From assembly GCA_020637445.1 (NCBI GenBank), contig JACJVZ010000001.1, positions 85,108-149,107 of the forward strand: a DNA stretch of 64,000 nt, given 5' to 3'. Below are positions 9,165 through 46,119 of this stretch, in pieces. The notes under the pieces were generated by a model. The model had not been told where the DNA came from. It saw nothing but the letters and a program-made list of their open reading frames with translations, and did not search any database. This DNA is from Calditrichota bacterium (GTDB taxonomy: Bacteria; Electryoneota; RPQS01). The position numbers and the translations under genes are program-made. Numbering within the stretch: position 1 is the stretch's first letter; every line of letters begins with the position of its first letter.

Positions 9165-9187
9165 CATCGACCTGATTTGAAACAGAA

Positions 9188-15838: not shown

Positions 15839-16108
15839 TGTAACCTGGATTTTGAATTTGTAACCAGCATGTAACCAACGTAAGGCGAGTATTTTCTAAC
15901 GTGTAACCATGTAACCAATTTTTGCGATACACACCCCACTATAAATGATTTTTTGATCGTCGTATTCAGCATTGAATCTAGTGAATTGAATTTTCTATAA
16001 TGAGAGTATCGTTCTAAAAAGGTTACAAGGTTACATTACTATTTCTACTCCACTTACGTGGTTACAATCAGGTTACATGAAGGTTACATTTTAGGAAAAC
16101 AGGTTACA
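15839..16108. repeat. Iteron-type origin candidate: 5x TGTAACC (15839-15916), a ~100-bp AT-rich spacer, then 6x GGTTACA (16021-16108) in mirror-image spacing
   Basis: Left heptamer starts: 15839, 15859, 15870, 15902, 15910. Right heptamer starts: 16021, 16029, 16059, 16071, 16082, 16102. The spacings mirror each other (left 20/11/32/8, right 8/30/12/11/20) around an AT-rich centre at 15917-16020. The region lies just downstream of, and overlaps the 3' end of, the replicase gene. Confidence 0.6.
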
Positions 16109-28700: not shown

Positions 28701-28840
28701 GGCTTGAAGCCGACCTTCAGGGGATACTGTTGTCTGAGCGGTTTAGCAAGTTGCCCAACGTTTTGGATAACTGGAAACCGATTAGATCGCGGCTCATGGA
28801 GAAAGCCTATACTTCTCGCGACATTTTGTCGTACGCCTAG
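25703..28840 (+). CDS. hsdR: Type I restriction enzyme endonuclease/helicase subunit HsdR
   Basis: N-terminal PD-(D/E)xK region (VLVECKSPKV). SF2 helicase motifs (GSGKSLTMMF; DEAH box MTDEAHRSQY). 1045 aa. Confidence 0.85.
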   Translation: MPRVDRTPAYIKIDEKNHVEVPFLAQLEGLGWDVIRLEMKDQKPKDTWRTDFSEVILEPVLRQSLKKINPWIEDDQVDDVIRRLTSYTASGLLDNNRRILAMLLENMSVSENRKTGDPDPTVRIIDFENRDNNSFIAVSQPKFRVPATEHHIFPDIVLFVNGLPVVLVECKSPKVKEPIPEAIDQMMRYSQQRGEEKEGVPQLFYFNQFIVATCRQQAKFGTITTHTERHFYRWTDPYPKSLNDLEHGASSPNDQQRLVAGMLDKDNLLSLIRTFTLFKTNDKGKLIKVVGRYQQFRAVKKAVGRLLTGTNRQERSGIIWHTQGSGKSLTMMFMVREMYRHPELSKWKVVFVTDRTQLEQQLRETSQSIGFTVKPADSIAKLKELLPTDSSDLIMAMIHKFQERELQEAFPELNTSQNVLVMTDEAHRSQYKLLGANLDRALPNATKIGYTGTPIDRTEQVFGDYIDKYTMREAIEDGVTLSIVYEGRTHNAEVDDAEAMDTDFQDVFSDCKIDERLKILGYSSRLAYLEAEPTITAKAKDMVKHYVSQVFPNGFKAQVVAVSQEAAVRYKKALESALQGMIEGLEKHNPRKINIERLKQLKVEVVISGGHNDLPHIKEHADSSKHKTHIKSFTLPFDTEDEGVKGDVGILVVMNMLITGFDAPIEQVMYLDRVITDHNLLQAIARVNRVGEEGKDKGFVVDYVGVGHHLKDAIKSYDEREQAEVVKCLSTPAEELNELVAASNSLKEMLAKHGLTNLSDHDAFFDLFYDEDVRYDYLEAFKKLTKSLNLVFPRKEALEYLNEYQSLSEINALAASHLNDDRLSLKGVPAKLRRITDAHLVSKGIEQKVAPISIFDDSFIENVKKRSRAKTKAAEVEHAIRHHIEVNINDDPELYASFAEALERIFQDFKDNWQAIFEELEKLRARIRNLPQPPAGLTRKKHMPFFRILAREIYGKRFGDDTFTDEEEDNLVELTHEVVETIVRETKLIGFWDSTPSQNRLEADLQGILLSERFSKLPNVLDNWKPIRSRLMEKAYTSRDILSYA

Positions 28841-28845
28841 TTACA

Positions 28846-29520
28846 ATGACAATCACATACGAAACGCGACACTCAAAACGCAAAACCATTTCGATAACCG
28901 TCGAACGGGACCGTTCCGTAGTGGTACATGCGCCATTGGGTACGACAAAGGGAGCCATCGACCGTATTGTCGAAAAGAAGAAGTCATGGATAAAGGAAAA
29001 ACTCCGGCATCCCTTGAAGTATGACAATGAAAAGCGACCTGTTGAATTTGTTTCAGGCGAATCTGTGTACTACATGGGCAGAGAATATCGACTTGAAATT
29101 CGCAAGGGCGGCAACGAGACAATCGAAATTCAAGGGTCATTCATTGTTACAAGTTCAAGTAGGGAGCGTGCACGAGAAGTATTTCGCAATTGGTGCAAGT
29201 CCGAGGCTCGCGAGAGATTCGTGCCACGCGTCCACGAAATTGCGAAACGACTCGGAGTTTTACCAAGCCGCGTATCGATCACGGACTCCAAATACAGGTG
29301 GGGATCCTGCACTCCGAAAGGTACTGTAACTCTAAATTGGAGACTTGTGAAAGCTCCCCCTACAGTAGTTGATTACGTGATAGTACACGAATTAGCGCAT
29401 CTCAAAGAACTCAATCACTCTCCGGACTTTTGGACGATCGTAAAGACGCACGCCCCGAAACAGAGAGAAGCGAGGGAGTGGCTGAAGCAGCACGGAAGTG
29501 CTCTGGAAGCAAATTTCTAA
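28846..29520 (+). CDS. Zinc-dependent metallopeptidase/hydrolase of the YgjP/DUF45 (M48-like) family, commonly linked to type I R-M loci
   Basis: HExxH motif VIVHELAHLKELNHSPDFW. 224 aa. Lies 6 nt after the hsdR stop. Confidence 0.65.
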   Translation: MTITYETRHSKRKTISITVERDRSVVVHAPLGTTKGAIDRIVEKKKSWIKEKLRHPLKYDNEKRPVEFVSGESVYYMGREYRLEIRKGGNETIEIQGSFIVTSSSRERAREVFRNWCKSEARERFVPRVHEIAKRLGVLPSRVSITDSKYRWGSCTPKGTVTLNWRLVKAPPTVVDYVIVHELAHLKELNHSPDFWTIVKTHAPKQREAREWLKQHGSALEANF

Positions 29521-32905: not shown

Positions 32906-33901
32906 TTGGCACAAAAGAATAGGGACAACATGCCCGACCTAAACCACCTTCAACGCGCACTGCGCATTCTTCAGCGGTTGATGACTCACGATCGAGTCAC
33001 AGTTGCGGAACTGCATGAACTGCTAGACAAACAGGTCGATAAGCGTTCGATTCAACGGATGTTGAATTCCATAGAAGGCGCGAATATCCCGTTGCGATTT
33101 GAAACCGGAGCACATGGTGTTCGGTACTACAGATTGCAGCGGGAATTTGATTTTGTGCCGATGATGCTGGAGCCGGATGACTTGTTGGCGGGCATTCTTT
33201 TGGGACAGTTCAAAGAACTGTTTCAAGGCACAAAGATTGGCGACAATATCAAACGTGTCTTTGAACGCATGGAGCAGCTCGTGCCGCCCGATGGAGTCGA
33301 GATCGCTTCAGCATTCTGGGATGTCAATGATGCTTTCTCGTATCACGAAGCTGGTCGAGTCGACATCAAGCCATTCAGCCACGTCCTGATGGACCTGTTC
33401 AAAGCACTTCTGGCGCGCAAAGTGTGTTGGGTGAAGTACAAAGGGAAGTCGTATCAGATTCATCCATACAGTCTGATTCTGCATACCGGATCGCTCTACG
33501 CAGTCGTCTTTCAACCTTATCACAAGTCGTACATCTATCTGTCGTTGCCACGCATCGAGGAGATTACGCCGACTGACGAGATCTTTGAACGTGATCCCAA
33601 GTTTAGCCTAAGAGAGTTTATGAAGGACAAGTTCGGCATCTGGTCGGACAAGCCTGCGACAGTGAAAATCAAATTCGCCAAGCTTGTTCGTCCGTCAATA
33701 GAAGGACGCGTCTGGCATCACAGTCAGTCGATAAGAGAACTTAAGTCCGGTGACATCGTACTCACAATGAAAGTAGGTATTACGGAAGAACTGATTGCGT
33801 GGATTCTGCGATGGGGGAAGTATGGAATCGTGCAGTCCCCTAAGAAGCTGCAAGACAGAATCAAGCGGACCCTAAGAGAAACTCTGAAGAGTTACAGATA
33901 G
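32906..33901 (+). CDS. HTH plus WYL-domain transcriptional regulator (YafY/BrxR/CapW-like)
   Basis: N-terminal wHTH (LQRALRILQRLMTHDRVTVAELHELLDKQVDKRSIQRML). C-terminal WYL-type region (YSLILHTGSLYAVVFQPYHKSYIYLSLPRIEEI). Confidence 0.65.
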   Translation: MAQKNRDNMPDLNHLQRALRILQRLMTHDRVTVAELHELLDKQVDKRSIQRMLNSIEGANIPLRFETGAHGVRYYRLQREFDFVPMMLEPDDLLAGILLGQFKELFQGTKIGDNIKRVFERMEQLVPPDGVEIASAFWDVNDAFSYHEAGRVDIKPFSHVLMDLFKALLARKVCWVKYKGKSYQIHPYSLILHTGSLYAVVFQPYHKSYIYLSLPRIEEITPTDEIFERDPKFSLREFMKDKFGIWSDKPATVKIKFAKLVRPSIEGRVWHHSQSIRELKSGDIVLTMKVGITEELIAWILRWGKYGIVQSPKKLQDRIKRTLRETLKSYR

Positions 33902-33907
33902 CACGTC

Positions 33908-34288
33908 ATGATTTGTCGCTCTGGCTGGTATTTTTCAGCCATGAAGACAACATCTCCCACCCCAAAGCCCGGCCGCAAGATCGTTATCGATCTTAAGTCT
34001 GTTCCTGTTAACTACAAAGCGGCAACGAGGTTATTCTGTCAGCGATATCTAACCGCAGCACTACGAATGTACTCATGGAATGTGACCAAATGTGCAAAAG
34101 CGCTTGGAATCAGCAGGAGGACATTGCAGCTCAGGATGAGGCAGTTTGGAATTCAGGAGGGCATGAACATCGAGTCCAATGCGCATTTCATCACTGCAAA
34201 AGAAACCTCAATGGCTATTGACTCCGATTCGGCATTAGAACCTACTTCCTTAGATGTCAGCAGCCGGAGTGAAAATGTCGTCCAATAA
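33908..34288 (+). CDS. Small Fis-type HTH DNA-binding protein
   Basis: C-terminal HTH_8-like motif WNVTKCAKALGISRRTLQLRMRQFGI. Confidence 0.45.
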   Translation: MICRSGWYFSAMKTTSPTPKPGRKIVIDLKSVPVNYKAATRLFCQRYLTAALRMYSWNVTKCAKALGISRRTLQLRMRQFGIQEGMNIESNAHFITAKETSMAIDSDSALEPTSLDVSSRSENVVQ

Positions 34289-35801
34289 CGGCTATCGATA
34301 TCTGTCCAAGTCTAGGCTAATGGCACTTCATCAGTGCCCATTGCGGCTTTGGAACGAGGTGCACCGACGCGATCTGATGCAGGCGCCGTCAGCAGAAGCC
34401 CAAGCTCGGTTTGACGCTGGAACGATGGTTGGTGAGCTTGCTCGCGATCTCTATCCCCAAGGTAGGTTGATAGCGGAGAAGTACTGGGAAATCGCAATGG
34501 CCAAGATTCACACAAACGAAGCACTGGCCGACAAGTCCATTCCGGCACTGTTTGAACCGGCGTTCGAGTATCGGCAGACCCGCGTACGCTGCGATATTCT
34601 CGTTCGTGGAAAAGGCGGCTGGCAGCTCTGGGAAGTCAAGAGCGTAGTCAATCCCAAAGAATACCACGTGCTTGACGTTGCAATTCAGGCGCATGTACTG
34701 AAGAAGTCGATGGAGGCGTCCGGGAGCGACTGTAATTTCGAGAATATTGGCGTAGTCCATCTAAACAATGAATATGTCTACGACGGCAAGAAGTATGATG
34801 CAAATAGTCTCTTCAGCCGATTTGAGTGCTTAGATGAAGCGTTGGACATTGAGATTCCAGTTGAAGACTTGATTTCTGAGGGTCTAGAAATCGCCACGTC
34901 GACAATACCGCCGCAGATTAAGCCTGGCGGTCAATGCACAGATCCTTACGACTGCCCATTCCTTGGCAGTGCCTGTGATGTGCCGGAACGGCATCCACTG
35001 ATGTTGGTGCCAGGCGTTGGTCCGGCCAAGCTTGAGAGTCTTATTGCACAGGGAATCAACACACTGGACGATCTTGCAGCCAGCAGCGTAGTCTTAAATG
35101 GCCCCCAGCAGCGCATGATGAAGGCCGAAGAGACTGGACAATGCGTGGTCGAACCGACATTGTCTGAATATCTGGCGGCAATAGGATATCCCAGATATCA
35201 TCTTGACTTCGAGACGTTCATGCCTGCGCTTCCTAGATACAAAGGTACGCGGCCATTTCAGGCGCTGCCGTTCCAGTACTCAGTTCATTTCGAAGAATCT
35301 GAACGACGACCTGCACAGCACTTTGGCTATCTGCATTCGGAAGATTCAGATCCAAGGCGGTTGCTCACCGAGCATATGCTTGATGTCCTTGAACAGCACC
35401 CAGACGCGCCAGTCCTAATGTACACAGCGTACGAGAAACGGGTTCTCAATGCGCTTGCAGATGAACTTCCTGAATACGCAGACCGATTGAATACCGTCGC
35501 TGATCGACTCGTTGATTTGTGTGCCATCGTCAAGGACAATATCTACCATCCGGACTTCAACGGCAGCTTTTCTATCAAAAGTGTATTGCCTGCCTTGGTC
35601 CCGGAACTCGGATACGATGATCTTGAAATTGCGGATGGTACAGCGGCTTCGCTGAAGTACATGGAGATGATCGAGCTAGCCAAGTCTGACAAAACTTCGG
35701 CGAAGGTGATATTGAACCAGCTTTGGGAGTATTGTAAACGCGATACGGAGGCGATGATTGCCGTCGTGTCACGGCTTAACATATTGTCAGCGGGTATTTG
35801 A
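34275..35801 (+). CDS. Cas4/RecB-like PD-(D/E)xK nuclease with a 1+3 Cys Fe-S arrangement, a helix-hairpin-helix motif and a ~250-aa C-terminal domain of unknown function (DUF2779-like)
   Basis: Start chosen at the ATG with GGAG 6 nt upstream. N-terminal Cys (HQCPLRLW). D...E.K core (RCDILVRGKGGWQLWEVKSV). C-x5-C-x6-C (CTDPYDCPFLGSAC). HhH (LVPGVGPAKLESLIAQGI). Confidence 0.55.
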   Translation: MSSNNGYRYLSKSRLMALHQCPLRLWNEVHRRDLMQAPSAEAQARFDAGTMVGELARDLYPQGRLIAEKYWEIAMAKIHTNEALADKSIPALFEPAFEYRQTRVRCDILVRGKGGWQLWEVKSVVNPKEYHVLDVAIQAHVLKKSMEASGSDCNFENIGVVHLNNEYVYDGKKYDANSLFSRFECLDEALDIEIPVEDLISEGLEIATSTIPPQIKPGGQCTDPYDCPFLGSACDVPERHPLMLVPGVGPAKLESLIAQGINTLDDLAASSVVLNGPQQRMMKAEETGQCVVEPTLSEYLAAIGYPRYHLDFETFMPALPRYKGTRPFQALPFQYSVHFEESERRPAQHFGYLHSEDSDPRRLLTEHMLDVLEQHPDAPVLMYTAYEKRVLNALADELPEYADRLNTVADRLVDLCAIVKDNIYHPDFNGSFSIKSVLPALVPELGYDDLEIADGTAASLKYMEMIELAKSDKTSAKVILNQLWEYCKRDTEAMIAVVSRLNILSAGI

Positions 35802-35888
35802 TACTGGGCTGCCCTATTTCATACCAACATGAATCAATTGATTTGCGATCATACTAATATGTAGTAACGCGTAAGAACTGTAAGAACA

Positions 35889-36989
35889 ATGGCAATTAGA
35901 CGAAAGCAGCACATTCCCACTTTGCGTGAAATTGTCCGGCGGATTCCCAAAGAAAACGACCTTTTCTCCGAAGTGTTTTCACGTGAGTCAGTAATAAATG
36001 CGATCGACCGGCTTTTTGTCAAACGCAACATGTATGGATACAGCAGTTGGTTTGTGCTGGAATGTGCTGGAGAGTTATCCCGACAGTACAGCGACCTCGC
36101 AGCTGCCATGCTTGAACGTGCTGCAGACTACATTCTTGAACGCGATGGCCTACGAAGTGCAGATGAATGTCAGAATCTGGTGTCTGAAGCGGCGACACAT
36201 TGGCTTATGTCGGACAATATTGCTGAGTACAACGAAACGAACTTGCATCGTATTTCTATTAGCCTTAAGTCAACTAAACAACGTGAGCTTTTTGTTTCAG
36301 AGGAACATCTCGGTAGTCTAATTGTGCTGTACGATACAGCAGAAAGATACTTTGAATCAGGTAATTTGGAAAGGGCTCTTGAGACGTTTCAGCTATTTAT
36401 GAGAGAGATGGAAGTCGAAGAACAGTACGTGGCGGCCGGTGATGCAGCCTTAAGATGTATGTTGGTTTGTGCTGCATTGGAGAATTGGCCTAAGACCCAA
36501 GATTTCGCCTTGGAGTCGCTGGAACTGTATAAGCGATCAGAAGAGGATATGGATCTAGACGATATGCTTCTTTGCAATTACTACACGGGCAAAGCCATGT
36601 ACTTCATGGCGGCAGCCGCTAACGCTGGCAGTATTATAGATTGTCTTACTTTCTGCAAAGAGGATGATGAAGACAGAGAGATGCTCACAAGAAACGGAGT
36701 TGACTTCCGCGAGATGGATCAAATGCTAGCGAGATGCCATGCAATACGAGGCGAACTGTGCTTTCAGAAATGGGCCTATCAAAACAACTCGACGCTTCTC
36801 AGCGATGCTGAGGCTGATCTAATAAAGTCAGCAGAGATGCTTGAGGAAGAGCCGGAACGCCCGCGCAGAGTACTGGCACGAGTGTACGCCGCATTAAGCA
36901 CCGTCTATAGTGCAAAAGGTAGCATAGATGAAGCAGCAGAATATCGCGAAAAAGCTCTTAGATTCGGATTTGATTTATCCGAAGAATAA
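35889..36989 (+). CDS. Hypothetical all-helical (TPR-like?) protein, 366 aa
   Basis: Clean ORF. Amphipathic helical-repeat character. No catalytic motifs. Confidence 0.45.
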   Translation: MAIRRKQHIPTLREIVRRIPKENDLFSEVFSRESVINAIDRLFVKRNMYGYSSWFVLECAGELSRQYSDLAAAMLERAADYILERDGLRSADECQNLVSEAATHWLMSDNIAEYNETNLHRISISLKSTKQRELFVSEEHLGSLIVLYDTAERYFESGNLERALETFQLFMREMEVEEQYVAAGDAALRCMLVCAALENWPKTQDFALESLELYKRSEEDMDLDDMLLCNYYTGKAMYFMAAAANAGSIIDCLTFCKEDDEDREMLTRNGVDFREMDQMLARCHAIRGELCFQKWAYQNNSTLLSDAEADLIKSAEMLEEEPERPRRVLARVYAALSTVYSAKGSIDEAAEYREKALRFGFDLSEE

Positions 36990-37055
36990 TGTATTAGTAT
37001 AGTTTGCATTGGCTCCACGACGGGTGGCGCAATAAGAATGCGATATTGAAGAGTA

Positions 37056-37376
37056 ATGGGCAGCACCTACGAAGCAACGTGCCAGTCTTGTAACCATCAC
37101 TTTGATTTCCAAATTAGCGGAGGCATGACATTCCACTATCTGCACTGCGACAAATGTGGGGCTGGTAAGGCCATCGCCTTTGACGAACTTGAAGTTGTTG
37201 CTGGCGAACCACAATGTCCTGGGATAAATTTAGATCACAATTTGAAAGTTGAATGCGTTGCAGACAAGTGTCTTTGTGGGGGACACTTTCGATTCAATGC
37301 GCCAGTTCGATTCCCATGTTGTCATTCAACTGATGTCGATTGGGACGAAGACAATCCGCAAGAGAACTATGACTAG
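37056..37376 (+). CDS. Small zinc-ribbon protein (106 aa, multiple CxxC pairs)
   Basis: CQSCNHH...HCDKCG...CPG...CVADKCLCGGH...CCH is a Cys-rich metal-binding pattern. Confidence 0.45.
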   Translation: MGSTYEATCQSCNHHFDFQISGGMTFHYLHCDKCGAGKAIAFDELEVVAGEPQCPGINLDHNLKVECVADKCLCGGHFRFNAPVRFPCCHSTDVDWDEDNPQENYD

Positions 37377-37526
37377 AGGCATAATACCAGACAGTTCACA
37401 GATCGCGTTAACCACAATTCGGGCTTCGCAGTGAACCCTTTCGGGGGCCTCCGTACTCTTGCTACATTAATACCGAAAGGTTCGCTGGGTTACCAACTGT
37501 TCGCGCCGGGGACAGAAGAACAATTG

Positions 37527-37599
37527 CTGCCGTCTCACTCCGCCGGACGGCAGTAAGTATGCCTAATCCTACAACTGGTACAGAAATATGGGCAGACCA
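37527..37599 (+). repeat. Direct repeat copy 2 (hairpin CTGCCGTC/GACGGCAG followed by the core TAATCCTACAACTGGTACAGA...GGGCAGACCA)
   Basis: See copy 1. The first 21 nt of the core are identical. The hairpin keeps its pairing through TT->TG and AA->CA changes. Confidence 0.7.
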
Positions 37600-37730
37600 A
37601 CCTAGCCTACCCAACCTTGCCGGGTCCCTTTCCTGCTGATCAATATGTCGCGAATCAACTGCAAAAATGGCATTTTTGATAGGTCCTATTGCTGCAAAGC
37701 AACTTATCATTCAAGAAAGGGAGATTCTGA

Positions 37731-39743
37731 ATGTCTGACGAAACTACTGTCCGTAACGTAATCACTTCAATAGATCAGCATGTTCGCGATGTTTTTGGTA
37801 CTTCAAAGGCGTACCATATTGACATCTATCAACGGGAGTATCGGTGGGATAAGGACAATGTCGACACGTTGCTGAATGACCTTCAGATTCGTTTCGAACA
37901 ACATCAGCGCATTGAAACGGATCCCAAAGAAATCCATAAGGATGTTCTCAAGCGCTTCGAGCCATATTTTCTTAACACCTATTTGACCCACAGCACCAAT
38001 TCGACAACGGCTATCGTTGACGGTCAACAACGACTTTCGACCATCTTGCTAATGCTGATAAAGCTTCGGTCTATTCTCACTGAAATAGAAGGTGGTGAAA
38101 GCGCATCAACCAAGACATTTTCAAGCAAAAGCCTTGAACGTCTGATCTTCGAAACTGATGATTTCGGCGATGCGAATCGCTTCAAAGTCTATAATGAAAA
38201 TCGCGAGGCAGCCTTTCGCGGGCTGATAGACAATGCACCTGTCGATCCCTGCGACGAGACACAGAATCGGATTAATGAGAACTACACATTCATAAGTCAA
38301 CAGTTTGATGTATATTTCAAGATTGATGGCGATAGTAAGCAAGAGTGGGACTTATCAAAACTCACACACTACATTTTCTTTCTTCTTGACCGAGTATCAA
38401 TTGTAGAGATCAAGATAGAACGACAACAGCATGTTGCAACAATTTTTGAGGTTGTAAACGACCGTGGACTCGGACTCAAGCCTTATGAGATATTGAAGGG
38501 TAAGTTGTTAGGCAATCTTCCACCTGTTGAGAAGGAATATGCCAACAAGGTATGGACTGACCTTCAAAACAGATACTTCGCTTCCGATGTCAAAAATAGT
38601 ACTGATTCAAAGATCACACTTGATATGTTCTTTCAAACGTACTTTCGTGCCAAATTCGCTGAAAGCGAAGCGGATTACGTAAAGTACGAAAACGACTATC
38701 ACTACGAGATATATCGGAACAAAGACATTTCCAAGTACTTTGGCAACTTCTCCGACACACGCATTCTTTACGACAAGATTGTTAATGAGATAAAGTATTT
38801 CGCGGAACTGTACCTCAATTTACGCACCGGCTACTTTGATGAATTTCTGATTTACAACAAGCTTCTTGATCAGAATCAGCAGTACCTCTTGATAATGTCC
38901 TCGGTGATTCTGAATGATCCAAGTCGCGATACTAAAGTCACAGGGATTGCGCGGAAGTTTGACCAACTCCACTCTGTGCTCCGATTGCTTGATGTATATG
39001 ACAGTAACGTGTTTCAGCGTTATATCTACAAATTGAATAAACGAATTCGTAATGTATCTATGCTTGACGCAATCCACGTGTTCGATAGTACCTTGATAGA
39101 AGCACTCGTTGAAGGTGAAACTATCGCTCCAGAAGACGTAAATAATGTTGCCGATATTTTCCAGTATGAACGGTTCAGAGCTATGAGGAATCGCTGGACT
39201 AATTTCAGCAAGTATGTGCTGTTGCGCGTCGACCGCTACTTAGCGGAGCACTTAGACAAGCCTTCGTATACGACGAAAGGATCTTTGCAGGATTTGGAAG
39301 ACCACTTCAACAAGAGTACACGAAAGATTTATGGTATGCATCTTGAGCATATCTATGCGCGAAACGAGGAAAACTTCGACCAATTTAGGGATGTTAATGG
39401 CATATTTGACGAACAGCACTTTAATACAGTTCGGAATCAGCTGGGCTTGGTTCTACTTCTAAAAGACCGTCAGAACGAAAGCAGCAATAATGAATCATAT
39501 AGGATGAAAATGGAGCGATATCGTACGAGTAACTTTATCTGGAATGAACTTATGGTCGGCCATCTAGATATTGTGGACAAACGAAAGTTACCCGACAAAT
39601 TTGCATTTGAGAGGGTGGATCCTGATTCTAGCGGTGCCTTTCCAAGCGATAAGTGGGGGGCCCGACAGCAACTAATGTATAATGCTGTAAAAACCGTCTG
39701 GCTTGATGATGTTATGAATTGGGAGCAAACATTAAATGAATAA
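37731..39743 (+). CDS. GmrSD-like type IV (modification-dependent) restriction endonuclease: DUF262 N-terminal domain plus DUF1524 His-Me finger C-terminal domain
   Basis: DUF262 motifs (IDIYQREYRWDKDNV; IVDGQQRLSTILLML). C-terminal GMHLEHIYARNE fits the DUF1524 (D/E)H-I-x nuclease motif. 670 aa. Confidence 0.7.
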   Translation: MSDETTVRNVITSIDQHVRDVFGTSKAYHIDIYQREYRWDKDNVDTLLNDLQIRFEQHQRIETDPKEIHKDVLKRFEPYFLNTYLTHSTNSTTAIVDGQQRLSTILLMLIKLRSILTEIEGGESASTKTFSSKSLERLIFETDDFGDANRFKVYNENREAAFRGLIDNAPVDPCDETQNRINENYTFISQQFDVYFKIDGDSKQEWDLSKLTHYIFFLLDRVSIVEIKIERQQHVATIFEVVNDRGLGLKPYEILKGKLLGNLPPVEKEYANKVWTDLQNRYFASDVKNSTDSKITLDMFFQTYFRAKFAESEADYVKYENDYHYEIYRNKDISKYFGNFSDTRILYDKIVNEIKYFAELYLNLRTGYFDEFLIYNKLLDQNQQYLLIMSSVILNDPSRDTKVTGIARKFDQLHSVLRLLDVYDSNVFQRYIYKLNKRIRNVSMLDAIHVFDSTLIEALVEGETIAPEDVNNVADIFQYERFRAMRNRWTNFSKYVLLRVDRYLAEHLDKPSYTTKGSLQDLEDHFNKSTRKIYGMHLEHIYARNEENFDQFRDVNGIFDEQHFNTVRNQLGLVLLLKDRQNESSNNESYRMKMERYRTSNFIWNELMVGHLDIVDKRKLPDKFAFERVDPDSSGAFPSDKWGARQQLMYNAVKTVWLDDVMNWEQTLNE

Positions 39744-41241
39744 AGACTTAGGCGTCTTCCCTTTTGGAAAAGAAGTTGTAGAAGTTAGGCAAGCTGATGA
39801 TTCTCCGAAGAGCGTGTTTATACTAGGTGTTTATGCTAGTGCAGTACACGCTCGATGGATAGGAGCAAATGGAAGGGAATTGGTTAAGTCATTGTCCGTG
39901 TGCAGCGAGTCTGAGATATTCTGGGATGGGTCAAACCAAGACTTGATAATACAAAGAATTGTAGTTCCTAATGATGCTGGAAAGCTAAAGCCATCACATC
40001 TTAATGGCGAGTCAGGAAAGGCTCTCGACAAGCATTTCCTCGCACCACTTCATCTAAATCGGTCACAAGTATGGCTTTCCGACTTGTTACCTTTCTTCCA
40101 TGTGAGGCCTGGGAGTAAACAGGAAAAGCGGATCCACGATACATACAACAATCTTGCAGTTGAGAAAGGATGGCCAGTTGCGAATATCAGAAAACTATCT
40201 ACAAAGTTTGAAACAACTGTTGAACGGGTTTATGAGATAGTAGCTGAGCTTGTTTTGTCTGGTGCTGACATCTTGATTACTCTTGGTGATGATCCGCTGC
40301 GCCTATTTACTTCAAGATTTGATCAGTGGCACCGAGCGAGCCTAAGTGAATACGCTTCCTATGGCAACACATACAAAATCGAAATAGACGGTCGATCATT
40401 GCTGCACTTGCCGCTAGTGCATCCGCGACAGGCTGGAAGACTTGGGAATCACTCCTCCAAATGGAGCGATCTTCATGACCACTGGAAACACGGTGATCCC
40501 AGTTGTTTGATACGATGCCGATTATACGACAATGATTTGTCAAACGTCAACTTTGATAATATTCCAAATTATTGTGGTCGAAACCCTTATTCTGTTTTGC
40601 AATATCTAATCATGCGCTTCTGCACTTACATAGTTAAAAGAGACAAGGGACTAGCTCCTAATCCCTTCTACGGCTACTGCACACTTGCGCTATGTACGCC
40701 TAATCATATGGGGATTAGGCTAAGTGCCGGTGACTGGATTGCAGGATTTACCGACAGAGCGTCAGGTAACAAGCTCGTCTATTGCATGCGAGTTGATGAG
40801 GTGCTTGACTTGGATCACTATTACCATGACCAACGCTTCCAACGCAAGAAGCCCCAGCACAATGGAACTGCTCGGCAGCGAGTCGGTGATAACATGTATT
40901 GGAGAGATGAACGAGGTGTATGGAAACGAGACCCTGAAGCTAGTTTGCACTTCAAGAAGGAGCACTTCAATAGGGATACTCGGCACGCTTTAGTTTACAT
41001 TGGCAGACGATTCCACTATCTTGGTAGGGTAGCCTCTGTTGTTCCGCCGAAGTTCCATGTGCTACCGCCTGCCGGCCGAGGAGTAAGGACGAATCATGAA
41101 GACAATCTTGTTAATGACTTCCTGTCATGGGTGCAGGAATCATTCGAGGTCGGAATTACAGCAATGCCGAGTATGTTTAGTGGTACTTCGGGATGCAGTA
41201 CCGATACTGGTTCCAGTCGCAAAAGCGTCGTATGCGGCTAA
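39736..41241 (+). CDS. Hypothetical 501-aa protein translationally coupled to the GmrSD-like gene; its N-terminal half may have a UDG-like fold lacking canonical catalytic residues (tentative)
   Basis: The start ATGAATAA overlaps the upstream stop. Segments FILGVYASAVHAR, ADILITLGDD and LHLPLVHPRQAG occur in the order and spacing of UDG motifs (ILGQDPY..AHG / LG / HPS) but with the catalytic residues substituted. Cys-rich C-terminal half. Confidence 0.4.
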   Translation: MNKDLGVFPFGKEVVEVRQADDSPKSVFILGVYASAVHARWIGANGRELVKSLSVCSESEIFWDGSNQDLIIQRIVVPNDAGKLKPSHLNGESGKALDKHFLAPLHLNRSQVWLSDLLPFFHVRPGSKQEKRIHDTYNNLAVEKGWPVANIRKLSTKFETTVERVYEIVAELVLSGADILITLGDDPLRLFTSRFDQWHRASLSEYASYGNTYKIEIDGRSLLHLPLVHPRQAGRLGNHSSKWSDLHDHWKHGDPSCLIRCRLYDNDLSNVNFDNIPNYCGRNPYSVLQYLIMRFCTYIVKRDKGLAPNPFYGYCTLALCTPNHMGIRLSAGDWIAGFTDRASGNKLVYCMRVDEVLDLDHYYHDQRFQRKKPQHNGTARQRVGDNMYWRDERGVWKRDPEASLHFKKEHFNRDTRHALVYIGRRFHYLGRVASVVPPKFHVLPPAGRGVRTNHEDNLVNDFLSWVQESFEVGITAMPSMFSGTSGCSTDTGSSRKSVVCG

Positions 41242-41987
41242 TTAGACCTCTATCATACCAACTTCAAGATGTAGTACTGATCTAGCCCCAGAAAACTGTA
41301 CCACTTTGAAAGCAACTGAATAGTCACAAAAGTATTTCTGCACGCTCTCGCTCCGACAAATCGCCCAAAGTCGTCTCGATGTCACTCTAAACGACATTGA
41401 AAACAAAGACTTTTGAGGCCGTTGGAAGTCGGATCAAGAGACTGTTCCTGATGGAGTGTTAAGCCGAGCAAAAACAGTGGGTGTTGGGATGGTGTTTTAG
41501 GAACAGGATGTCGTGTGGGATGTCGGTTGGATGTTTTCTTGGTTAGAAGTAGAATTGGGGTCTGTTTTCGAGCAGAGCGTGTTGACAAGTCTGCTTTCGG
41601 GCAGGCTTTTGCGAGGAGCGAACCAATGGGTCGTCGGATTTGACGACTTTCATTGACTAACGAAACGAGCGACTGTGATTGTTCTTCACAGTCGCATTTC
41701 TTATTGGTGCGGCCCTCAAAGTCAGAGCCAAAAAATGCGGAGTGAACGTACTTGCAGTGCAGCTGATCGAGCAAAACGAAGCTGACCAAAACGGCCAGGC
41801 CAAATTGCTCCCTCAACTAATAGCCGCGACGGCCGGAATCGGGAAGTCTCGGGGGCTTTCACTTCCCCTCGCCTTTTCTATTGATTGAGAGGCATCGACA
41901 ACTGAATTGTCATCATCACTTGTGCCGCAAAACGGCAAATTATTTTTCGATATTTCATCACCTGACAACGTATTTGCTTGACGAGCA

Positions 41988-42749
41988 TTGAAGCAAACTT
42001 ATGCGGAACGATGCGATTTCATCCGTTTCATTTGCATTCTGAAGTTCGTGCTGTTAAATTCTGCTAGTGCTATTTCATGGAAGCAGCGATTCAGACAGGA
42101 CATTAAGATGATTTCGACAGCTAAAATTGACTGGAAGGCGCGCAAAAGGTCGAAGCGCCAGTTTCCGGACGGCATTTGGTCTCGGGCCATTGATCCGTCA
42201 AGTGTTTACCTGTATCGAGCGAACATTCCATTCTACGACCCGAAAAGCAATGCAGGGCCTAGCGATCTCTTCGTACCGGAGTGCCCGCCGGTGTTTTCAA
42301 ATCGGATCGACTTCGCGGAATGGGTGGCTGTGGATGCTAAAAACTACGGAGTAAATTTCGAAGCGGACTACGAGTGGTTTCTCAGGGTCGTTGACGATCT
42401 CAATCTTTATGAGGAAGTAGTTACCCAGGCCTCGAACCACCTAGTGGATACAATCGAGTTTATGGGACCCAATCCGGTGATCAGTCTTGACCACGTTGTC
42501 GGGACTTTGGCGCTTCCACTAATTCTTGAGCGCCTTGTCAAACGGCGCGTGCTCTTGTGGCTGTTTTCTCGCTACGAGAAAGTGGACGTTGTTGCGCGAC
42601 GATTGTCCTATAAACCTGGATCGGATAAACAATGGCCAGGACTTCGGACGTTGTTGAGTCGGTGCGGATTGACGTTGCTAGACGTTCAGAATCCGCAAGC
42701 GTCATGCACGATCTTGGGCGCCGAACGAAAATGGCTAACGAGCAACTAG
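41988..42749 (+). CDS. Hypothetical protein (253 aa; alternative start at 42108)
   Basis: Clean ORF followed by a strong terminator. Confidence 0.4.
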   Translation: MKQTYAERCDFIRFICILKFVLLNSASAISWKQRFRQDIKMISTAKIDWKARKRSKRQFPDGIWSRAIDPSSVYLYRANIPFYDPKSNAGPSDLFVPECPPVFSNRIDFAEWVAVDAKNYGVNFEADYEWFLRVVDDLNLYEEVVTQASNHLVDTIEFMGPNPVISLDHVVGTLALPLILERLVKRRVLLWLFSRYEKVDVVARRLSYKPGSDKQWPGLRTLLSRCGLTLLDVQNPQASCTILGAERKWLTSN

Positions 42750-42772
42750 ACCGAATCAGATTCGCACGCACA

Positions 42773-42806
42773 GTAAACCCGGCTTCCGCCGGGTTTACTG
42801 TTATTG
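42773..42806 (+). terminator. Rho-independent terminator (perfect 11-bp stem), followed by a second 9-bp hairpin
   Basis: GTAAACCCGGC-ttcc-GCCGGGTTTAC followed by TGTTATT. Then GTTGCAGAG...CTCTGCAAC. Confidence 0.6.
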
Positions 42807-43194
42807 GAGGTATGGTTTGTTGCAGAGCCACTCTGCAACACAGATTTTGTTGGCGTGGGCGTTGGCAATAGTGGAAGCGAAAACACGATAGCCGTAAGTT
42901 TGTTCGGTTGGGACGAAGCCAGCACTGTCTACTTCTGAGAATGCGGCAACCCAATCTCTGTGCTTTCAGGCTTTAATTTTTCGCTCGCACACCTCGGCCC
43001 TGAACAAAGCAAGGCGCGCGTATCGTGTCCGACTTCATCAAGAAGTTTGGTCCCCAAGGACGTGCGGTTGATTTGAATGAGTCTTCAAGGGTGCTCATAC
43101 TTTGATGGGACTTGTTGCTCAGAATTTCAATCGCGTCTAGGCGCTCACTTGCACGGTTCCCTGGATTGAACCGAATAACAATAAAGGAGGACTA

Positions 43195-43944
43195 GTGTAC
43201 AACAACCGAATTCATCTGTTCCCTTTCGGACTCGCTGAAGAAGACTATAAGAATTCCCGGTGGGGCGAGGAGGAAGATATCAGTGGTCTCGGCGTTTATG
43301 TGACGCTAATCGCAACAGACCAGAGAACAATGATATTGAAAACTTCGAACAGTTGCGCTTGCGTCAAGCGAATCAAACCTGCGTTGAAGGTATTAGATGG
43401 CCGCCCCGTGGAAAACCGGCGCATCGACACTATCTTTGAACCCTGCGCGTTGGACGCTCACCGAGACCTGTTGCGTTCATTTACCAACGAACACCGTCGC
43501 TGGATTGTCGATGGATGGTATGTTCAGGTTGGGTTTGCTAAGTACGACTCAGTAGGCCAGCCTGGAATCGAAACGTGTATCGGCACATCCATGCTGCTGT
43601 ACGATATCTTGACTGTCCGACACGGTTCAACCTTCACAGTCGACCACGAGCCCCTTGAGCTTTCGGCCAACTCTGTGCGGGACATTAAGCTGGCAATGGG
43701 GCAACACTTCCAGTTCGGGTCAGTCATTTTCACGCCGACTCTGGAACGATACCGAAACAAGGTTGCCGTGATGTGCCGCGCGGCCCTGGCAGGCGAGAAT
43801 CCCGTCAAAGCGTATCAAGAATTCCTTTCCGCTTCGAAAACTCACTTCCTCGATTTCGAGATTCGTGACGCCCCTGACAAGTACGAGACATACGTCACCG
43901 TCAAGGGCGGTCCAGAGAATCGCGCCTGGCGTCAGCAACAGTAG
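43195..43944 (+). CDS. Hypothetical protein (249 aa, GTG start)
   Basis: SD AAAGGAGG 6 nt upstream of the GTG. No motifs recognised. Confidence 0.45.
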   Translation: MYNNRIHLFPFGLAEEDYKNSRWGEEEDISGLGVYVTLIATDQRTMILKTSNSCACVKRIKPALKVLDGRPVENRRIDTIFEPCALDAHRDLLRSFTNEHRRWIVDGWYVQVGFAKYDSVGQPGIETCIGTSMLLYDILTVRHGSTFTVDHEPLELSANSVRDIKLAMGQHFQFGSVIFTPTLERYRNKVAVMCRAALAGENPVKAYQEFLSASKTHFLDFEIRDAPDKYETYVTVKGGPENRAWRQQQ

Positions 43945-44081
43945 CGTTTTCGGTCAATTTAGGAGATCGCTCCACGGAATAGGTGAGTTGCATTGGCAAC
44001 CGAGCAAATCAAGACGACACAACCCAGCAAGAACTACAGATTAGAACCGCAGGAAAATTACAACTGTTTCAGGAGGAATCG

Positions 44082-44498
44082 ATGAAAGACTTCAAGAATC
44101 TCAAGATCGGGACAATGTTCCAGATCGGAATCGTCAAGGAAGTCCAGATGAAAAGTGTGGAAGACTCAAACGGAAAAGTGCTTCCCAAAGTCTTCCTCAA
44201 AGTCGAGGCAGGCACCAACACATTTCACGTGGACGAAGCATTCGCTTGTGGACGTGACCGAGTTGCAAAACCTCAGGGCATGTGGCTCAAACTTGATCCT
44301 GACGGCAACATTCTTGCCTCATGCACGGTCGCAAAAGTGTTGACCTACTACAATGCATCTACATTGCGTGACATGGTCGGCACCCAAGTTTCTTTGTATC
44401 CAAAGCCACAAGGTTTCCTTGTGATCGTCGCCGTAAACCAGGTCAATGGTCACCGCCCCCCAACTCTCGCCGCAAGCGGAAGTAACCGGCAAAGTTGA
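44082..44498 (+). CDS. Hypothetical protein (138 aa)
   Basis: ATG preceded by CAGGAGG. Beta-rich composition. No motifs recognised. Confidence 0.4.
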   Translation: MKDFKNLKIGTMFQIGIVKEVQMKSVEDSNGKVLPKVFLKVEAGTNTFHVDEAFACGRDRVAKPQGMWLKLDPDGNILASCTVAKVLTYYNASTLRDMVGTQVSLYPKPQGFLVIVAVNQVNGHRPPTLAASGSNRQS

Positions 44499-44529
44499 GG
44501 TTCATATTACACGGTATAAGGTAGAGTAG

Positions 44530-44817
44530 GTGAAATCCGTGGGCGAAAAGCTGGACGAGATCCTCGAAATTCTTCGAGAGTATCGCGTTGAATCCGGTGA
44601 AGCGGTTTGGCTCACGCCGGAGGAAGCGGCCGATCGTCTGCGGATTTCGCGTTCGCGCATCTACCAGTACATTCACGAAGGGAGCATCCCATTCCACCGA
44701 TTGCCCGAGTCGAATTTGATTCGACTGAACACGCTCGAACTCGATGCGTGGGTACGGAGTGGGTCGCAACCGCCAAGACAAGTCTCGAAAGAAGCAATCA
44801 GGAGGATTCTAAAATAA
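44530..44817 (+). CDS. Excisionase-family HTH DNA-binding protein (Xis-like)
   Basis: LTPEEAADRLRISRSRIYQYIHEGSIPFHRL is a MerR-like excisionase HTH. Its stop TAA overlaps the integrase start (TAATG). Confidence 0.65.
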   Translation: MKSVGEKLDEILEILREYRVESGEAVWLTPEEAADRLRISRSRIYQYIHEGSIPFHRLPESNLIRLNTLELDAWVRSGSQPPRQVSKEAIRRILK

Positions 44818-45842
44818 TGCCCGTCACGGTACGATGGACAGAAAGGAAAAAGGGTCGAACATACTTTCTCGACATCGTTCACGACGGCCGCAGGAAGAAG
44901 GTGTCGCTCGGCCCAGTTAGCAGTCGCGAGGCTCGCGAAATCGCCGCACGAACGGAGCGTGAACTTCTACTCAATGGTTGGCCCGACGACAAGCCAGGCA
45001 ATCTGACGTTTTCAGAGTTCATGACGCAGTACTTCGACTACTGCATTGCAACAAAGTCTGGCAGCACGGTGAAGACGGATCGATATGCGCTCCAAACCTT
45101 CGCGAAGTACATCGGAAACGCGCAGTTGTCCGAAATCACGACCGACAAGATTGAAGAGTTCCGGCTGTATTTGCTGCGAAAAGTGAAGCCCAATTCCGTG
45201 AACGTTGTGCTTCGTCATTTGAAATCAGCGATGTCCTGGGCTGCCCAACGAGGTCTGATTTCAGCGAGCCCGGCAGCGAAGGTGAAACTGAACCGTGTAC
45301 CCCGGAACACGCACATGCGATTCCTCGACGACGCAGAGATCCAACGCCTACGGGACGCAATAGGCGATGACCTTCAACTTCGGCGCGTAGTAGACTTCGC
45401 GTTGTGGACGGGTCTGCGCCGCAATGAGATAGTGAACTTGCAATGGTCGGATGTCGATTTGAATCGTAAGGTGCTCATCGTTCAGAATAAGGCAGGGTTC
45501 CGCACCAAGTCGGGCAAGTCACGCAGCGTACCGATAAACAGCCAGCTTGAAGAGATGCTGAACGTGATGAAGGCCGCTGGCGCGAGACATGGAGATCACG
45601 TCTTCCCTTTGAACTATTGGACATTGGGCCAGCATTTCCGACGTGTTGCGCGTGCGGCCGGGTTGGACGGATTCAACCTTCACACGCTACGACACACGTT
45701 CGCATCGCATTTGATCATGGCCGGTGCTGACATTCGGTCCGTGCAGGAACTCTTAGGTCATCACGACATCTCGGTAACAATGATCTACAGCCATTTAAGT
45801 CGCGACCATCTAACAGCGACCGTCGAGAAGCTGAAATACTGA
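44817..45842 (+). CDS. int: Tyrosine site-specific recombinase (phage-type integrase)
   Basis: C-terminal catalytic region ...HTLRHTFASHLIMAGADIRSVQELLGHHDISVTMIYSHL carries the R...H-x-x-R...Y signature. RBS AGGAGGA lies upstream of ATG 44817. The longer six-frame extension from 44607 is rejected. Confidence 0.85.
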   Translation: MPVTVRWTERKKGRTYFLDIVHDGRRKKVSLGPVSSREAREIAARTERELLLNGWPDDKPGNLTFSEFMTQYFDYCIATKSGSTVKTDRYALQTFAKYIGNAQLSEITTDKIEEFRLYLLRKVKPNSVNVVLRHLKSAMSWAAQRGLISASPAAKVKLNRVPRNTHMRFLDDAEIQRLRDAIGDDLQLRRVVDFALWTGLRRNEIVNLQWSDVDLNRKVLIVQNKAGFRTKSGKSRSVPINSQLEEMLNVMKAAGARHGDHVFPLNYWTLGQHFRRVARAAGLDGFNLHTLRHTFASHLIMAGADIRSVQELLGHHDISVTMIYSHLSRDHLTATVEKLKY

Positions 45843-46027: not shown

Positions 46028-46046
46028 TTAGCAGGGCTTTAACCAG

Positions 46047-46119
<73 letters not shown>

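What the first reader, a model, noticed from the sequence alone, without database searches (positions are those of the whole stretch)
37731..41241. GmrSD-like type IV restriction enzyme translationally coupled to a 501-aa protein of unknown, possibly UDG-like, fold
The DUF262 (DGQQR) plus DUF1524 enzyme is a modification-dependent nuclease family. Its stop overlaps the start of the next gene (ATGAATAA), which implies co-expression. The partner's N-terminal ~250 aa has hydrophobic-strand/loop segments in the order of the uracil-DNA-glycosylase motifs (ILG..., ...LG..., ...HP...) but without the canonical catalytic Asp or Asn. That pattern would fit a base-flipping or modified-base sensor rather than a glycosylase. 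GmrSD-type enzymes are normally single-protein, so an obligate partner would be unusual.
Basis: inference. Interest (0 to 1): 0.6.

Follow-up and report, generated by a model that had tools for sequence, protein, structure and literature searches.

The report
Three-part defence against modified phage DNA
In a bacterial defence island, a nuclease that cuts chemically modified phage DNA is co-expressed with a protein that fuses a DNA-glycosylase-like half to a modified-base-reader-like half; these halves are separate genes in a sister strain, and the whole is a new variant of recently described glycosylase-based phage defences, not a new principle.

Summary

- The C-terminal half is an Nmad2 domain (Pfam 1.4e-43). 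Its model has a PUA-like fold (YTH/ASCH/EVE/McrB-N), the fold of modified-base readers.
- The 501-aa protein is a recent fusion. In a sister lineage (95% nt identity, 18 contigs) the halves are separate genes, and two in-frame stops there (TGA, TAA) are CGA and CAA here.

The fusion is real (17 independent contigs) but unique among 1.84 billion representative proteins.

The partner is not a general GmrSD companion. The closest other GmrSD relatives lie in BREX-like loci. The UDG-like and Nmad2 families are mostly solitary.

UDG-fold plus PUA-like pairings do recur independently: the published Brig3-BapA operon, TIR-Nmad2-MazG-UDG plasmid operons, and a UDG-like-ASCH fusion.

Best reading: a cassette against phages with modified DNA, in which a GmrSD nuclease is joined to a Brig-like glycosylase working with a PUA-like reader or unmasking enzyme. 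It is a new variant of a known kind, of moderate interest.

The parts
37564..37730 (+). Conserved upstream region of the cassette (presumed promoter and 5' leader)
   Evidence: The 95% nt identity block shared with L005 starts at 37564, 167 nt before the GmrSD ATG. Sequence immediately to the left (35757-37563) is absent from L005. The sigma-70 consensus scan was uninformative.
37731..39743 (+). GmrSD-family type IV restriction enzyme, 670 aa (DUF262/ParB-like N domain with DGQQR; DUF1524 His-Me-finger nuclease C domain)
   Evidence: Pfam GmrSD_N 7.7e-28 and GmrSD_C 2.1e-8. PADLOC Orf5, HEC-06 and SspE-type models. Motifs at residues 97-101 and 537-545. dN/dS 0.11 against L005. Deposited as MCB1060986.1, Calditrichota.
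39736..39743 (+). 8-nt overlap ATGAATAA between the GmrSD stop and the partner start
   Evidence: Conserved as ATGTATAA in L005 and in all 9 listed sister-lineage places, where the genes overlap by 8 nt.
39736..40512 (+). UDG-fold (Brig-like) domain of the 501-aa protein, residues 1-259; a separate 259-aa gene in the sister lineage
40513..40611 (+). Linker, residues 260-292: a translated former intergenic spacer. CGA at 40513-40515 and CAA at 40600-40602 replace the TGA and TAA stops of the sister lineage
   Evidence: Alignment with L005. Identity is 82.8%, with substitutions spread 5/5/7 over codon positions. JC distance 0.195 is at or above the dS of the flanking genes. pLDDT is low at the corresponding ends of both models.
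40612..41241 (+). Nmad2 domain (PF18753), residues 293-501, PUA-like (YTH/ASCH/EVE-type) fold; a separate 211-aa gene with its own ATG in the sister lineage

Best explanation
This is a compact, co-transcribed anti-phage cassette in a tRNA-Lys-linked defence island of a Calditrichota bacterium. It is aimed at phages whose DNA carries modified, probably cytosine-derived, bases. It combines two ways of attacking such DNA.

1. GmrSD is a modification-dependent (type IV) nuclease that cuts modified DNA.

2. The translationally coupled second protein joins a UDG-fold glycosylase of an uncharacterised Brig-like family to an Nmad2 domain with a PUA-like fold. The Nmad2 part flips out and recognises the modified base, or strips its decoration, as the ASCH-like hydrolase BapA does for Brig3. 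The UDG-like part then excises the base and leaves abasic sites that block phage replication.

The two halves were adjacent genes. In this lineage two T-to-C changes removed both in-frame stops and fused them.

Shown here: the domain identities and folds, the operon structure, the fusion event, purifying selection on all three genes, and the independent recurrence of UDG-fold plus PUA-like pairings.

Inferred: the defence role, glycosylase activity, the cytosine-type substrate, the division of labour between the two halves, and any cooperation with GmrSD.
For: Cassette unity:
- The block 37564-41239 is 95% identical to L005, while the neighbouring WYL-DUF2779 block is 86% identical. Homology stops exactly at the Nmad2 stop codon.
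- The 8-nt overlap is conserved.
- All three genes are under purifying selection: dN/dS 0.11, 0.22 and 0.34.

Fusion:
- The genes are split in L005 and in all 9 places shown of the 18 contigs carrying that lineage's GmrSD.
- They are fused on 17 independent contigs and in two NCBI MAG records.
- A fusion that persists implies both halves act at the same place and time.

Folds:
- UDG fold for the N-terminal half.
- PUA-like fold for Nmad2.

Active-site hints:
- The motif-B His is kept.
- A near-invariant Asp116 aligns to the uracil-recognising Asn80 of Thermus UDG.
- Brig1 has an essential Glu147 and Brig3 an essential Asp127 facing the base pocket.

Independent UDG plus PUA-like partnerships:
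- The Brig3-BapA overlapping operon. BapA is ASCH-like and was compared by its authors to PDB 5GUQ, which is also a hit of the Nmad2 model.
- TIR-Nmad2-MazG_C-UDG operons, complete on three unrelated plasmids and with the same genes close by on a fourth.
- A UDG-138aa-Nmad2 arrangement in L135-L137.
- P0119, which is this same UDG-like family fused to an ASCH domain.

Defence context:
- The island holds type I R-M, an AEP-TOTE protein, a WYL regulator, an integrase and a tRNA.
- Nmad2 is fused to TIR in P0425 and is gene 5 of a validated E. coli defence system.
- Both families are patchy, with variable neighbourhoods, and absent from phage genomes.
Against: - No biochemical or phage data exist for either partner family.
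- PADLOC and NCBIfam give no hit for the partner.
- Outside the two sister lineages, this UDG-like family, Nmad2 and GmrSD do not co-occur. The trio may therefore be a chance stacking.
- The GmrSD-linked copies differ from the family at eight positions that are at least 90% conserved, including P92E and N124R, which are 100% conserved elsewhere. This could mean altered or lost activity.
- The motif mapping rests on a weak profile alignment (hhalign probability 19%, E 1.3e-3).
- Nmad2 is about 200 aa with one barrel-type domain. BapA has two barrels and more than 250 aa, so they are probably not orthologues.
- Some family members lie in non-defence neighbourhoods (P0119).
Confidence: 0.55

Rival explanations
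1. Simple stacking. GmrSD, the UDG-like gene and Nmad2 are three autonomous single-gene functions that sit in a row in a defence island. They are co-transcribed but have no mechanistic interplay. The fusion is a neutral accident.
For: Each family is mostly solitary, with variable neighbours. The closest other GmrSD relatives are in BREX-like loci. The linker evolves neutrally. The fusion is unique among 1.84 billion representative proteins.
Against: UDG-fold plus Nmad2 or ASCH pairings recur at least four times independently, with different UDG families. The cassette moves and is conserved as one unit with a conserved overlap. The fused form persists on 17 contigs, with both halves under purifying selection.
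Confidence: 0.25
2. The UDG-like domain is a catalytically dead base-flipping sensor that, with Nmad2, recognises modified DNA and directs or activates GmrSD. This would be analogous to the inactivated EndoIII sensor domain of END nucleases.
For: The window copy gives no Pfam UDG hit. Eight family-conserved residues are replaced in the GmrSD-linked lineage, including the otherwise invariant P92 and N124. The genes are translationally coupled. There is a precedent for a glycosylase fold used as a sensor (END nucleases, PMC12191111).
Against: 65 of 73 conserved positions are kept, including E58, D116 and H229. dN/dS of 0.22 fits a maintained enzyme as well as a sensor. GmrSD enzymes of this clade work in other loci without such a partner. 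The UDG-like family is mostly solitary, so it must act on its own.
Confidence: 0.12
3. Not defence. The UDG-like-Nmad2 protein is a repair or epigenetic-maintenance enzyme for the host's own DNA, for example removing damaged or aberrantly modified bases, or protecting self DNA from GmrSD.
For: UDG-superfamily enzymes are classically repair enzymes. Some family members, such as P0119, lie among housekeeping-type genes.
Against: Distribution is sparse and patchy: 368 relatives in 185,579 species genomes. The gene sits inside an integrase- and tRNA-linked island with R-M and other conflict genes. Nmad2 is linked to TIR. Type I R-M genes are the commonest neighbours of the family.
Confidence: 0.06

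Closest known systems
Brig3-BapA operon (Mejia-Pitta et al., bioRxiv 10.64898/2026.02.25.707755)
   Different: Sequence relationship to Brig3 or BapA could not be tested because no sequences were available. BapA has two barrels and more than 250 aa, while Nmad2 is about 200 aa and belongs to its own Pfam family. Here the two parts are fused and sit behind a GmrSD. No activity is known.
Brig1 and Brig2 stand-alone defence glycosylases (PMC11078745; bioRxiv 10.1101/2025.10.29.685425)
   Same: UDG fold, with family-4 UDGs as the best structural matches (Sulfolobus tokodaii UDG for Brig1; 4zby ranks second here). They are single genes scattered in defence islands, often near BREX or R-M. The Asn position is acidic (Brig1 E147).
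   Different: The family here is a distinct, strongly conserved group (GVYASAVHARW, ASEPEIFW, LNGPSG, WLCDL, LGD, HPRQ motifs) with extra N-terminal strands. Homology to Brig1 or Brig2 was not tested. The substrate is unknown.
GmrSD / BrxU type IV restriction enzymes
   Same: DUF262 with DGQQR plus a DUF1524 nuclease. The closest relatives lie inside BREX-like loci, like BrxU.
   Different: Here the gene is not in a BREX locus. It heads a small operon with a glycosylase-like and reader-like partner. This is seen only in two sister Calditrichota lineages.
TIR-Nmad2-MazG/MazG_C-UDG predicted conflict system (DefensePredictor Fig. 6F and S12, PMC13092281; Burroughs et al. 2015, cited there)
   Same: Nmad2 and a UDG-superfamily gene share one operon.
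   Different: That UDG belongs to a different family with no significant sequence match to the window's. That system has TIR and MazG_C genes and no GmrSD. It is predicted, not validated.
PUA-superfamily sensor domains of modification-dependent nucleases (McrB-N, VcaM4I EVE-HNH, PD-T4-3) and END nucleases with an inactive EndoIII sensor
   Same: A reader fold for flipped modified bases is coupled to a DNA-attacking effector.
   Different: Here the effector fused to the PUA-like domain is a glycosylase fold rather than a nuclease. Nmad2 also has many invariant polar and Cys/His residues, which suggest an enzyme rather than a passive reader.

Membership tests
GmrSD-family type IV restriction enzyme | N-terminal DUF262 (ParB/Srx-like) domain with DGQQR motif | tested here: met
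   Pfam GmrSD_N 7.7e-28, residues 19-259. DGQQR at 97-101.
GmrSD-family type IV restriction enzyme | C-terminal DUF1524 His-Me-finger nuclease domain | tested here: met
   Pfam GmrSD_C 2.1e-8, residues 487-606. HLEHIYARN at 537-545.
GmrSD-family type IV restriction enzyme | Cleaves only DNA that carries modified bases | not testable with these tools
   Needs enzyme assays or phage plating.
UDG superfamily | Alpha/beta UDG fold | tested here: met
UDG superfamily | Sequence match to Pfam PF03167 | tested here: inconclusive
   72 of 92 family members match (best E 6.3e-8), but the window copy itself does not.
UDG superfamily | Motif B (HPS-type His after the last core strand) | tested here: met
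   LVHPRQ aligns with FHPAYL of 1ui0. H229 is near-invariant and P230 invariant.
UDG superfamily | Motif A with catalytic Asp/Asn/Glu (GQDPY, GINPG or GE.PG) | tested here: inconclusive
   There is no canonical motif. Two candidates exist: LGVYAS after strand 27-33, and the invariant SE-P-E (E58) after strand 48-57.
Brig-type antiviral DNA glycosylases | Acidic residue in place of the uracil-recognising Asn (Brig1 E147, Brig3 D127) | tested here: inconclusive
   Near-invariant D116 (WLCDL) aligns with N80 of 1ui0, but the hhalign probability is only 19% (E 1.3e-3).
Brig-type antiviral DNA glycosylases | Sequence homology to Brig1, Brig2 or Brig3 | not tested
No Brig structure appeared in the PDB copy.
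Brig-type antiviral DNA glycosylases | Excises a modified phage base and protects against the phage | not testable with these tools
   Needs biochemistry and plaque assays.
Nmad2 (PF18753) | Match above the Pfam gathering score, with conserved motifs D.GLAPNP, C....CTPNH and GDN.Y | tested here: met
   149.2 bits against a cutoff of 26.1. 39 of 39 conserved positions present.
PUA-like superfamily (ASCH/EVE/YTH) | PUA-like beta-barrel fold | tested here: met
BapA-like accessory hydrolase | ASCH-like protein encoded directly after a UDG-superfamily defence glycosylase | tested here: met
BapA-like accessory hydrolase | Homology to BapA, two-barrel architecture, and removal of glucose from glucosyl-5hmC | not tested
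   No BapA sequence was available. The size difference (about 200 aa against more than 250 aa) argues against orthology. Activity needs assays.

The most novel reading that the evidence does not exclude
The UDG-like-Nmad2 pair is a general two-step 'recognise or unmask, then excise' machine. Nmad2 would be a previously unrecognised PUA-like enzyme family that removes or reads decorations on hypermodified pyrimidines in DNA. The natural fusion would be the Rosetta-stone proof of that partnership. In this cassette the pair would also cooperate mechanistically with GmrSD, for example by exposing substrates for it, or by GmrSD cutting at the damaged sites. The three parts would then form one integrated system rather than parallel layers.
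Probability: 0.2. Interest if true: 0.75.

Novelty: new variant of a known kind. Interest (0 to 1): 0.5.

Why it matters
Glycosylase-based immunity (Brig1 in 2024; Brig2, Brig3-BapA and the Dag enzymes in 2025-26) is a young field with few families.

- This locus points to a large UDG-fold family with no functional annotation: 368 relatives in species genomes, with an acidic residue where Brig1 and Brig3 have theirs. It is a candidate further Brig family.
- It gives Nmad2, described in 2026 as 'of unknown function', a concrete structural hypothesis: a PUA-like modified-base module.
- It gives Nmad2 a concrete partner: UDG-fold enzymes, seen in four independent arrangements plus a natural gene fusion.

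If confirmed, this would generalise the Brig3-BapA logic of unmasking then excising. It could also supply new enzymes for detecting or removing modified bases.

The link to GmrSD itself looks lineage-specific, which limits that part of the interest.

Tried and rejected
- One alignment of the full protein with homologues of both halves (A1) was unusable. MAFFT superimposed the two domain sets, so the domains were aligned and modelled separately. No interdomain model was therefore obtained.
- Pfam on the isolated N-terminal half (E up to 10), PADLOC and NCBIfam gave nothing for the partner.
- Sequence and profile searches of the PDB gave nothing significant.
- The afdb50 fold library was not available.
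- Iyer et al. 2013, where I believe Nmad domains were first described, is not held. Searching 'Nmad2' found only unrelated papers. The Nmad5 and Tmn work is a different domain.
- The viral-contig scan and the GenBank phage search found no relative of either domain. A phage-derived origin is therefore not supported by these collections.
- The sigma-70 promoter scan found no more sites than shuffles.
- Searches for an att repeat of the tRNA-Lys 3' end found none in the window, so the far end of the island is undefined.
- The next-closest Nmad2 (P0122, 66% identity) has no UDG-like gene within 385 nt upstream. DNA for P0121 was not retrievable.
- An assembly or sequencing artefact as the cause of the fusion is rejected. 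Two separate stop codons are changed, and the exact protein recurs on 17 contigs from different projects.
Full report
**1. The observation**

The two ORFs are where the finding says: 37731..39743 (+, 670 aa) and 39736..41241 (+, 501 aa). The junction reads ...AATGAATAAAG. The second gene's ATG (39736) lies 8 nt before the end of the first gene's TAA stop.

The first protein is a GmrSD-family enzyme. It hits Pfam GmrSD_N (7.7e-28) and GmrSD_C (2.1e-8). It has DGQQR at residues 97-101 and the nuclease motif HLEHIYARN at 537-545. It also matches PADLOC Orf5, HEC-06 and SspE-type models.

**2. Context**

The window comes from a Calditrichota bacterium. The exact proteins are deposited as MCB1060986.1 and MCB1060987.1 from Calditrichota MAGs.

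The genes lie in a lower-GC segment (about 0.42-0.50, against about 0.55 beyond 48 kb). That segment ends at an HTH_17 excisionase-like gene, a tyrosine integrase (44607-45842) and tRNA-Lys (46046-46119).

The segment also carries:
- a type I R-M system with a YgjP peptidase (21751-29520);
- an AEP-TOTE protein (16091-18997, minus strand);
- an SPFH protein;
- a WYL/WCX regulator;
- a DUF2779 RecB-like nuclease.

This is a defence island.

**3. The partner has two domains, not one**

Residues 296-482 are an Nmad2 domain (PF18753, 1.4e-43). The N-terminal half gives no family hit on its own. It does have many standalone homologues of about 275 aa at 40-48% identity, several of them annotated as uracil-DNA glycosylase. 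The C-terminal half has many standalone Nmad2 homologues of about 200 aa.

**4. The 501-aa ORF is a gene fusion**

A genome scan with the UDG-like family found 368 relatives. One of them, L005, is 91% identical.

Synteny between L005 and the window:
- L005 positions 6566-10240 match window 37564-41239 at 95% nt identity.
- The WYL-HTH-DUF2779 block matches at only 86%.
- Window 35757-37563 (a TPR gene and a DUF8255 zinc-ribbon gene) is missing from L005.
- Homology stops at the Nmad2 stop codon.

In L005 the UDG-like gene (259 aa) ends at a TGA. A 96-nt spacer follows, in the same frame and with a second stop (TAA). Nmad2 (211 aa) then starts at its own ATG (MRFCTY...). In the window these two stop codons are CGA (40513-40515) and CAA (40600-40602), and the spacer has become a 33-residue linker.

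The linker region evolves without coding constraint:
- It is 82.8% identical, with substitutions spread 5/5/7 over the three codon positions.
- Its JC distance of 0.195 is at or above the dS of the flanking genes (0.13-0.15).
- The genes themselves are under purifying selection: dN/dS 0.11 for GmrSD, 0.22 for the UDG-like gene and 0.34 for Nmad2.

The split form was seen in all 9 places shown, out of 18 contigs that carry the sister lineage's GmrSD, from several sequencing projects. The exact fused protein occurs on 17 contigs from independent assemblies. The fusion is therefore real.

An exhaustive HMMER search of 1.84 billion representative proteins found 1874 relatives. None of the best 150 covers both domains. 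The fusion is confined to this lineage.

**5. Folds**

The UDG-like domain model has pLDDT 92.1 and pTM 0.88.
- Foldseek against the whole PDB agrees (UdgX and family-4 UDG, E about 2e-6).
- 72 of 92 family members match Pfam UDG.

**6. Active-site reasoning (inference)**

The family alignment shows strongly conserved blocks: GVYASAVHARW, ASEPEIFW.G, LNGPSG, WLCDL, LGD.P and LVHPRQ.

A profile alignment to Thermus family-4 UDG was made. That sequence was recalled from memory and then verified as identical to PDB 1ui0. The alignment is weak (E 1.3e-3, probability 19%) but colinear.
- It places H229 on the motif-B His.
- It places D116 on Asn80, the residue that reads uracil.

In Brig1 the equivalent residue is Glu147, and in Brig3 Asp127 faces the 5hmC pocket. 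Both are essential. From my own knowledge (Kavli et al. 1996), the Asn204Asp change in human UNG confers cytosine excision. An acidic residue at this position therefore suggests a cytosine-type substrate.

The canonical motif A is absent. An invariant Glu58-Pro59 after a core strand is a candidate equivalent, but I could not verify this without model coordinates.

The GmrSD-linked copies keep 65 of 73 highly conserved positions. They differ at V29I, A52S, A56C, P92E, C115S, N124R and L146W, and in the window only at P59S. That fits a changed specificity, or less likely a loss of catalysis. Nmad2 keeps all 39 of its conserved positions, including D303, C315, C320, N323-H324 and D385-N386. That pattern looks enzymatic rather than purely aromatic-cage.

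**7. Is the partnership conserved?**

With GmrSD: no.
- Of the 80 UDG-like loci, only L005 has a GmrSD or an Nmad2.
- No neighbour family occurs in more than 7 of the 80 loci. The commonest neighbours are type I R-M subunits.
- Of the 80 Nmad2 metagenome loci, none has this UDG-like family or a GmrSD.
- The four closest non-orthologous GmrSD proteins (60-61% identity) lie in BREX-like loci between a PglX-type methylase and SNF2 and PglZ genes. This is the known BrxU situation.

Between UDG-fold and PUA-like proteins: yes, repeatedly and independently.
- (a) The published Brig3-BapA operon. BapA is ASCH-like, strips glucose from glucosyl-5hmC, and so creates Brig3's substrate.
- (b) Plasmids of Beijerinckia, Mesorhizobium and Cupriavidus carry the operon TIR(ThsB-like) -> Nmad2 -> MazG/MazG_C -> UDG(PF03167). 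An Agrobacterium plasmid has Nmad2 and MazG -> UDG close by, separated by an opposite-strand gene. This matches a system predicted in DefensePredictor. That UDG has no significant sequence match to the window's family.
- (c) L135-L137 carry UDG -> 138 aa -> Nmad2.
- (d) P0119 is this same UDG-like family (41% identity) fused to an ASCH domain, in the same order.

Nmad2 has further defence links. It occurs fused to TIR (P0425) and to Nmad3 (P0484). It is gene 5 of a validated E. coli defence system that includes a 5-hmdU DNA kinase.

Neither domain has relatives in 50,697 phage genomes or, by pattern scan, in IMG/VR.

**8. Mechanism proposed**

The cassette is transcribed from upstream of GmrSD, and translation of the second gene is coupled through the overlap.
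- GmrSD attacks modified DNA as a type IV nuclease.
- In the second protein, the PUA-like Nmad2 part binds the flipped modified base. It either targets the enzyme to such DNA or removes the decoration.
- The UDG-like part then cleaves the N-glycosidic bond, leaving abasic sites that stall phage replication, as shown for Brig1 and Brig3.

The two arms would give layered protection, for example against phages that carry GmrSD inhibitors. Direct cooperation between the arms is possible but has no support yet.

Rivals, in order of likelihood:
- Mere stacking of independent genes.
- A dead-glycosylase sensor serving GmrSD. END nucleases, with their inactive EndoIII sensor, are a precedent.
- A repair role.

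**9. Verdict**

The 'obligate GmrSD partner' reading is not supported. The more interesting content is the natural UDG-like-Nmad2 fusion and the recurrent pairing of UDG-fold and PUA-like proteins. This is a new variant of a known kind, glycosylase-based defence with an accessory PUA-like protein next to a type IV enzyme. Interest is moderate.

Noticed in passing
window 35757-37563: A TPR protein gene (35889-36989) and a 106-aa zinc-ribbon gene (37056-37376, Pfam DUF8255 on record) lie between DUF2779 and GmrSD in the window lineage. They are absent from the sister locus L005, which has only about 90 nt there. This is an insertion or deletion inside the island.
   Followed up: partly
window 32906-35801: A WYL/WCX regulator, a Fis-type HTH_8 protein and a DUF2779 RecB/Cas4-like nuclease precede the cassette on the same strand. 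They are conserved with L005 at only 86% nt identity, against 95% for the cassette. WYL regulators of the BrxR type are known (from memory) to control defence islands, so this one might regulate the cassette.
   Followed up: no
L174-L181 (relatives of the GmrSD): The closest non-orthologous GmrSD proteins (60-61% identity) are embedded in BREX-like loci between a roughly 910-aa N6_N4 methylase and SNF2 helicase and PglZ genes. They often overlap the downstream helicase gene.
   Followed up: partly
L192, L194, L196, L197 (plasmids of Beijerinckia, Mesorhizobium, Cupriavidus, Agrobacterium): A recurrent operon: ThsB-like TIR (about 155 aa) -> Nmad2 -> MazG/MazG_C (about 370 aa) -> UDG (about 220 aa). 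It often sits beside further TIR and SIR2 genes. In Parabacteroides (L193) the genes after Nmad2 are a nucleotide kinase and a radical SAM enzyme.
   Followed up: partly
P0119 / L191 6721-7821: A 366-aa protein fuses this same UDG-like family (41% identity) to an ASCH domain. It lies among housekeeping-type genes rather than in an obvious defence island. Other relatives carry GNAT acetyltransferase, DUF5677 or DUF7695 domains.
   Followed up: partly
L005 record title: The sister contig (CAZHAK010000001.1, 335 kb) is labelled 'uncultured Alphaproteobacteria', yet it shares 86-95% nt identity with the window. The window's proteins are deposited as Calditrichota. One of the labels is probably a binning or classification error.
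   Followed up: no
window 16091-18997 (-) and 21751-29520 (+): An AEP-TOTE conflict-system primase-like protein (968 aa), and a complete type I R-M system (HsdM, HsdS, HsdR) followed by a YgjP-like metallopeptidase, lie in the same island.
   Followed up: no
window 11028-15479: An ImuB-like (IMS family) gene is followed by a DnaE2-type polymerase III alpha gene. This is an error-prone polymerase cassette next to the defence island.
   Followed up: no
window 14-9164: Two very large secreted-type proteins: 762 aa with DUF7948 and a Por_Secre_tail domain, and 2321 aa with a right-handed beta-helix and an FlgD-Ig-like C-terminus. The Por_Secre_tail domain suggests a type IX secretion signal, which would fit a bacterium of the Fibrobacterota-Chlorobiota-Bacteroidota group.
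   Followed up: no
window 41242-44500: Between the cassette and the integrase lie ORFs with no family match (41988-42749, 43195-43944, 43983-44498) and a terminator-like hairpin at 41669-41695. These genes are absent from L005, where a histidine kinase and response regulator pair follows instead.
   Followed up: partly
window 46046-46119 and whole window: tRNA-Lys(CTT) abuts the integrase end of the island, and GC rises from about 0.48 to about 0.55 beyond about 48 kb. No direct repeat of the tRNA 3' end was found within the window, so the other island boundary is undefined or lies outside.
   Followed up: partly
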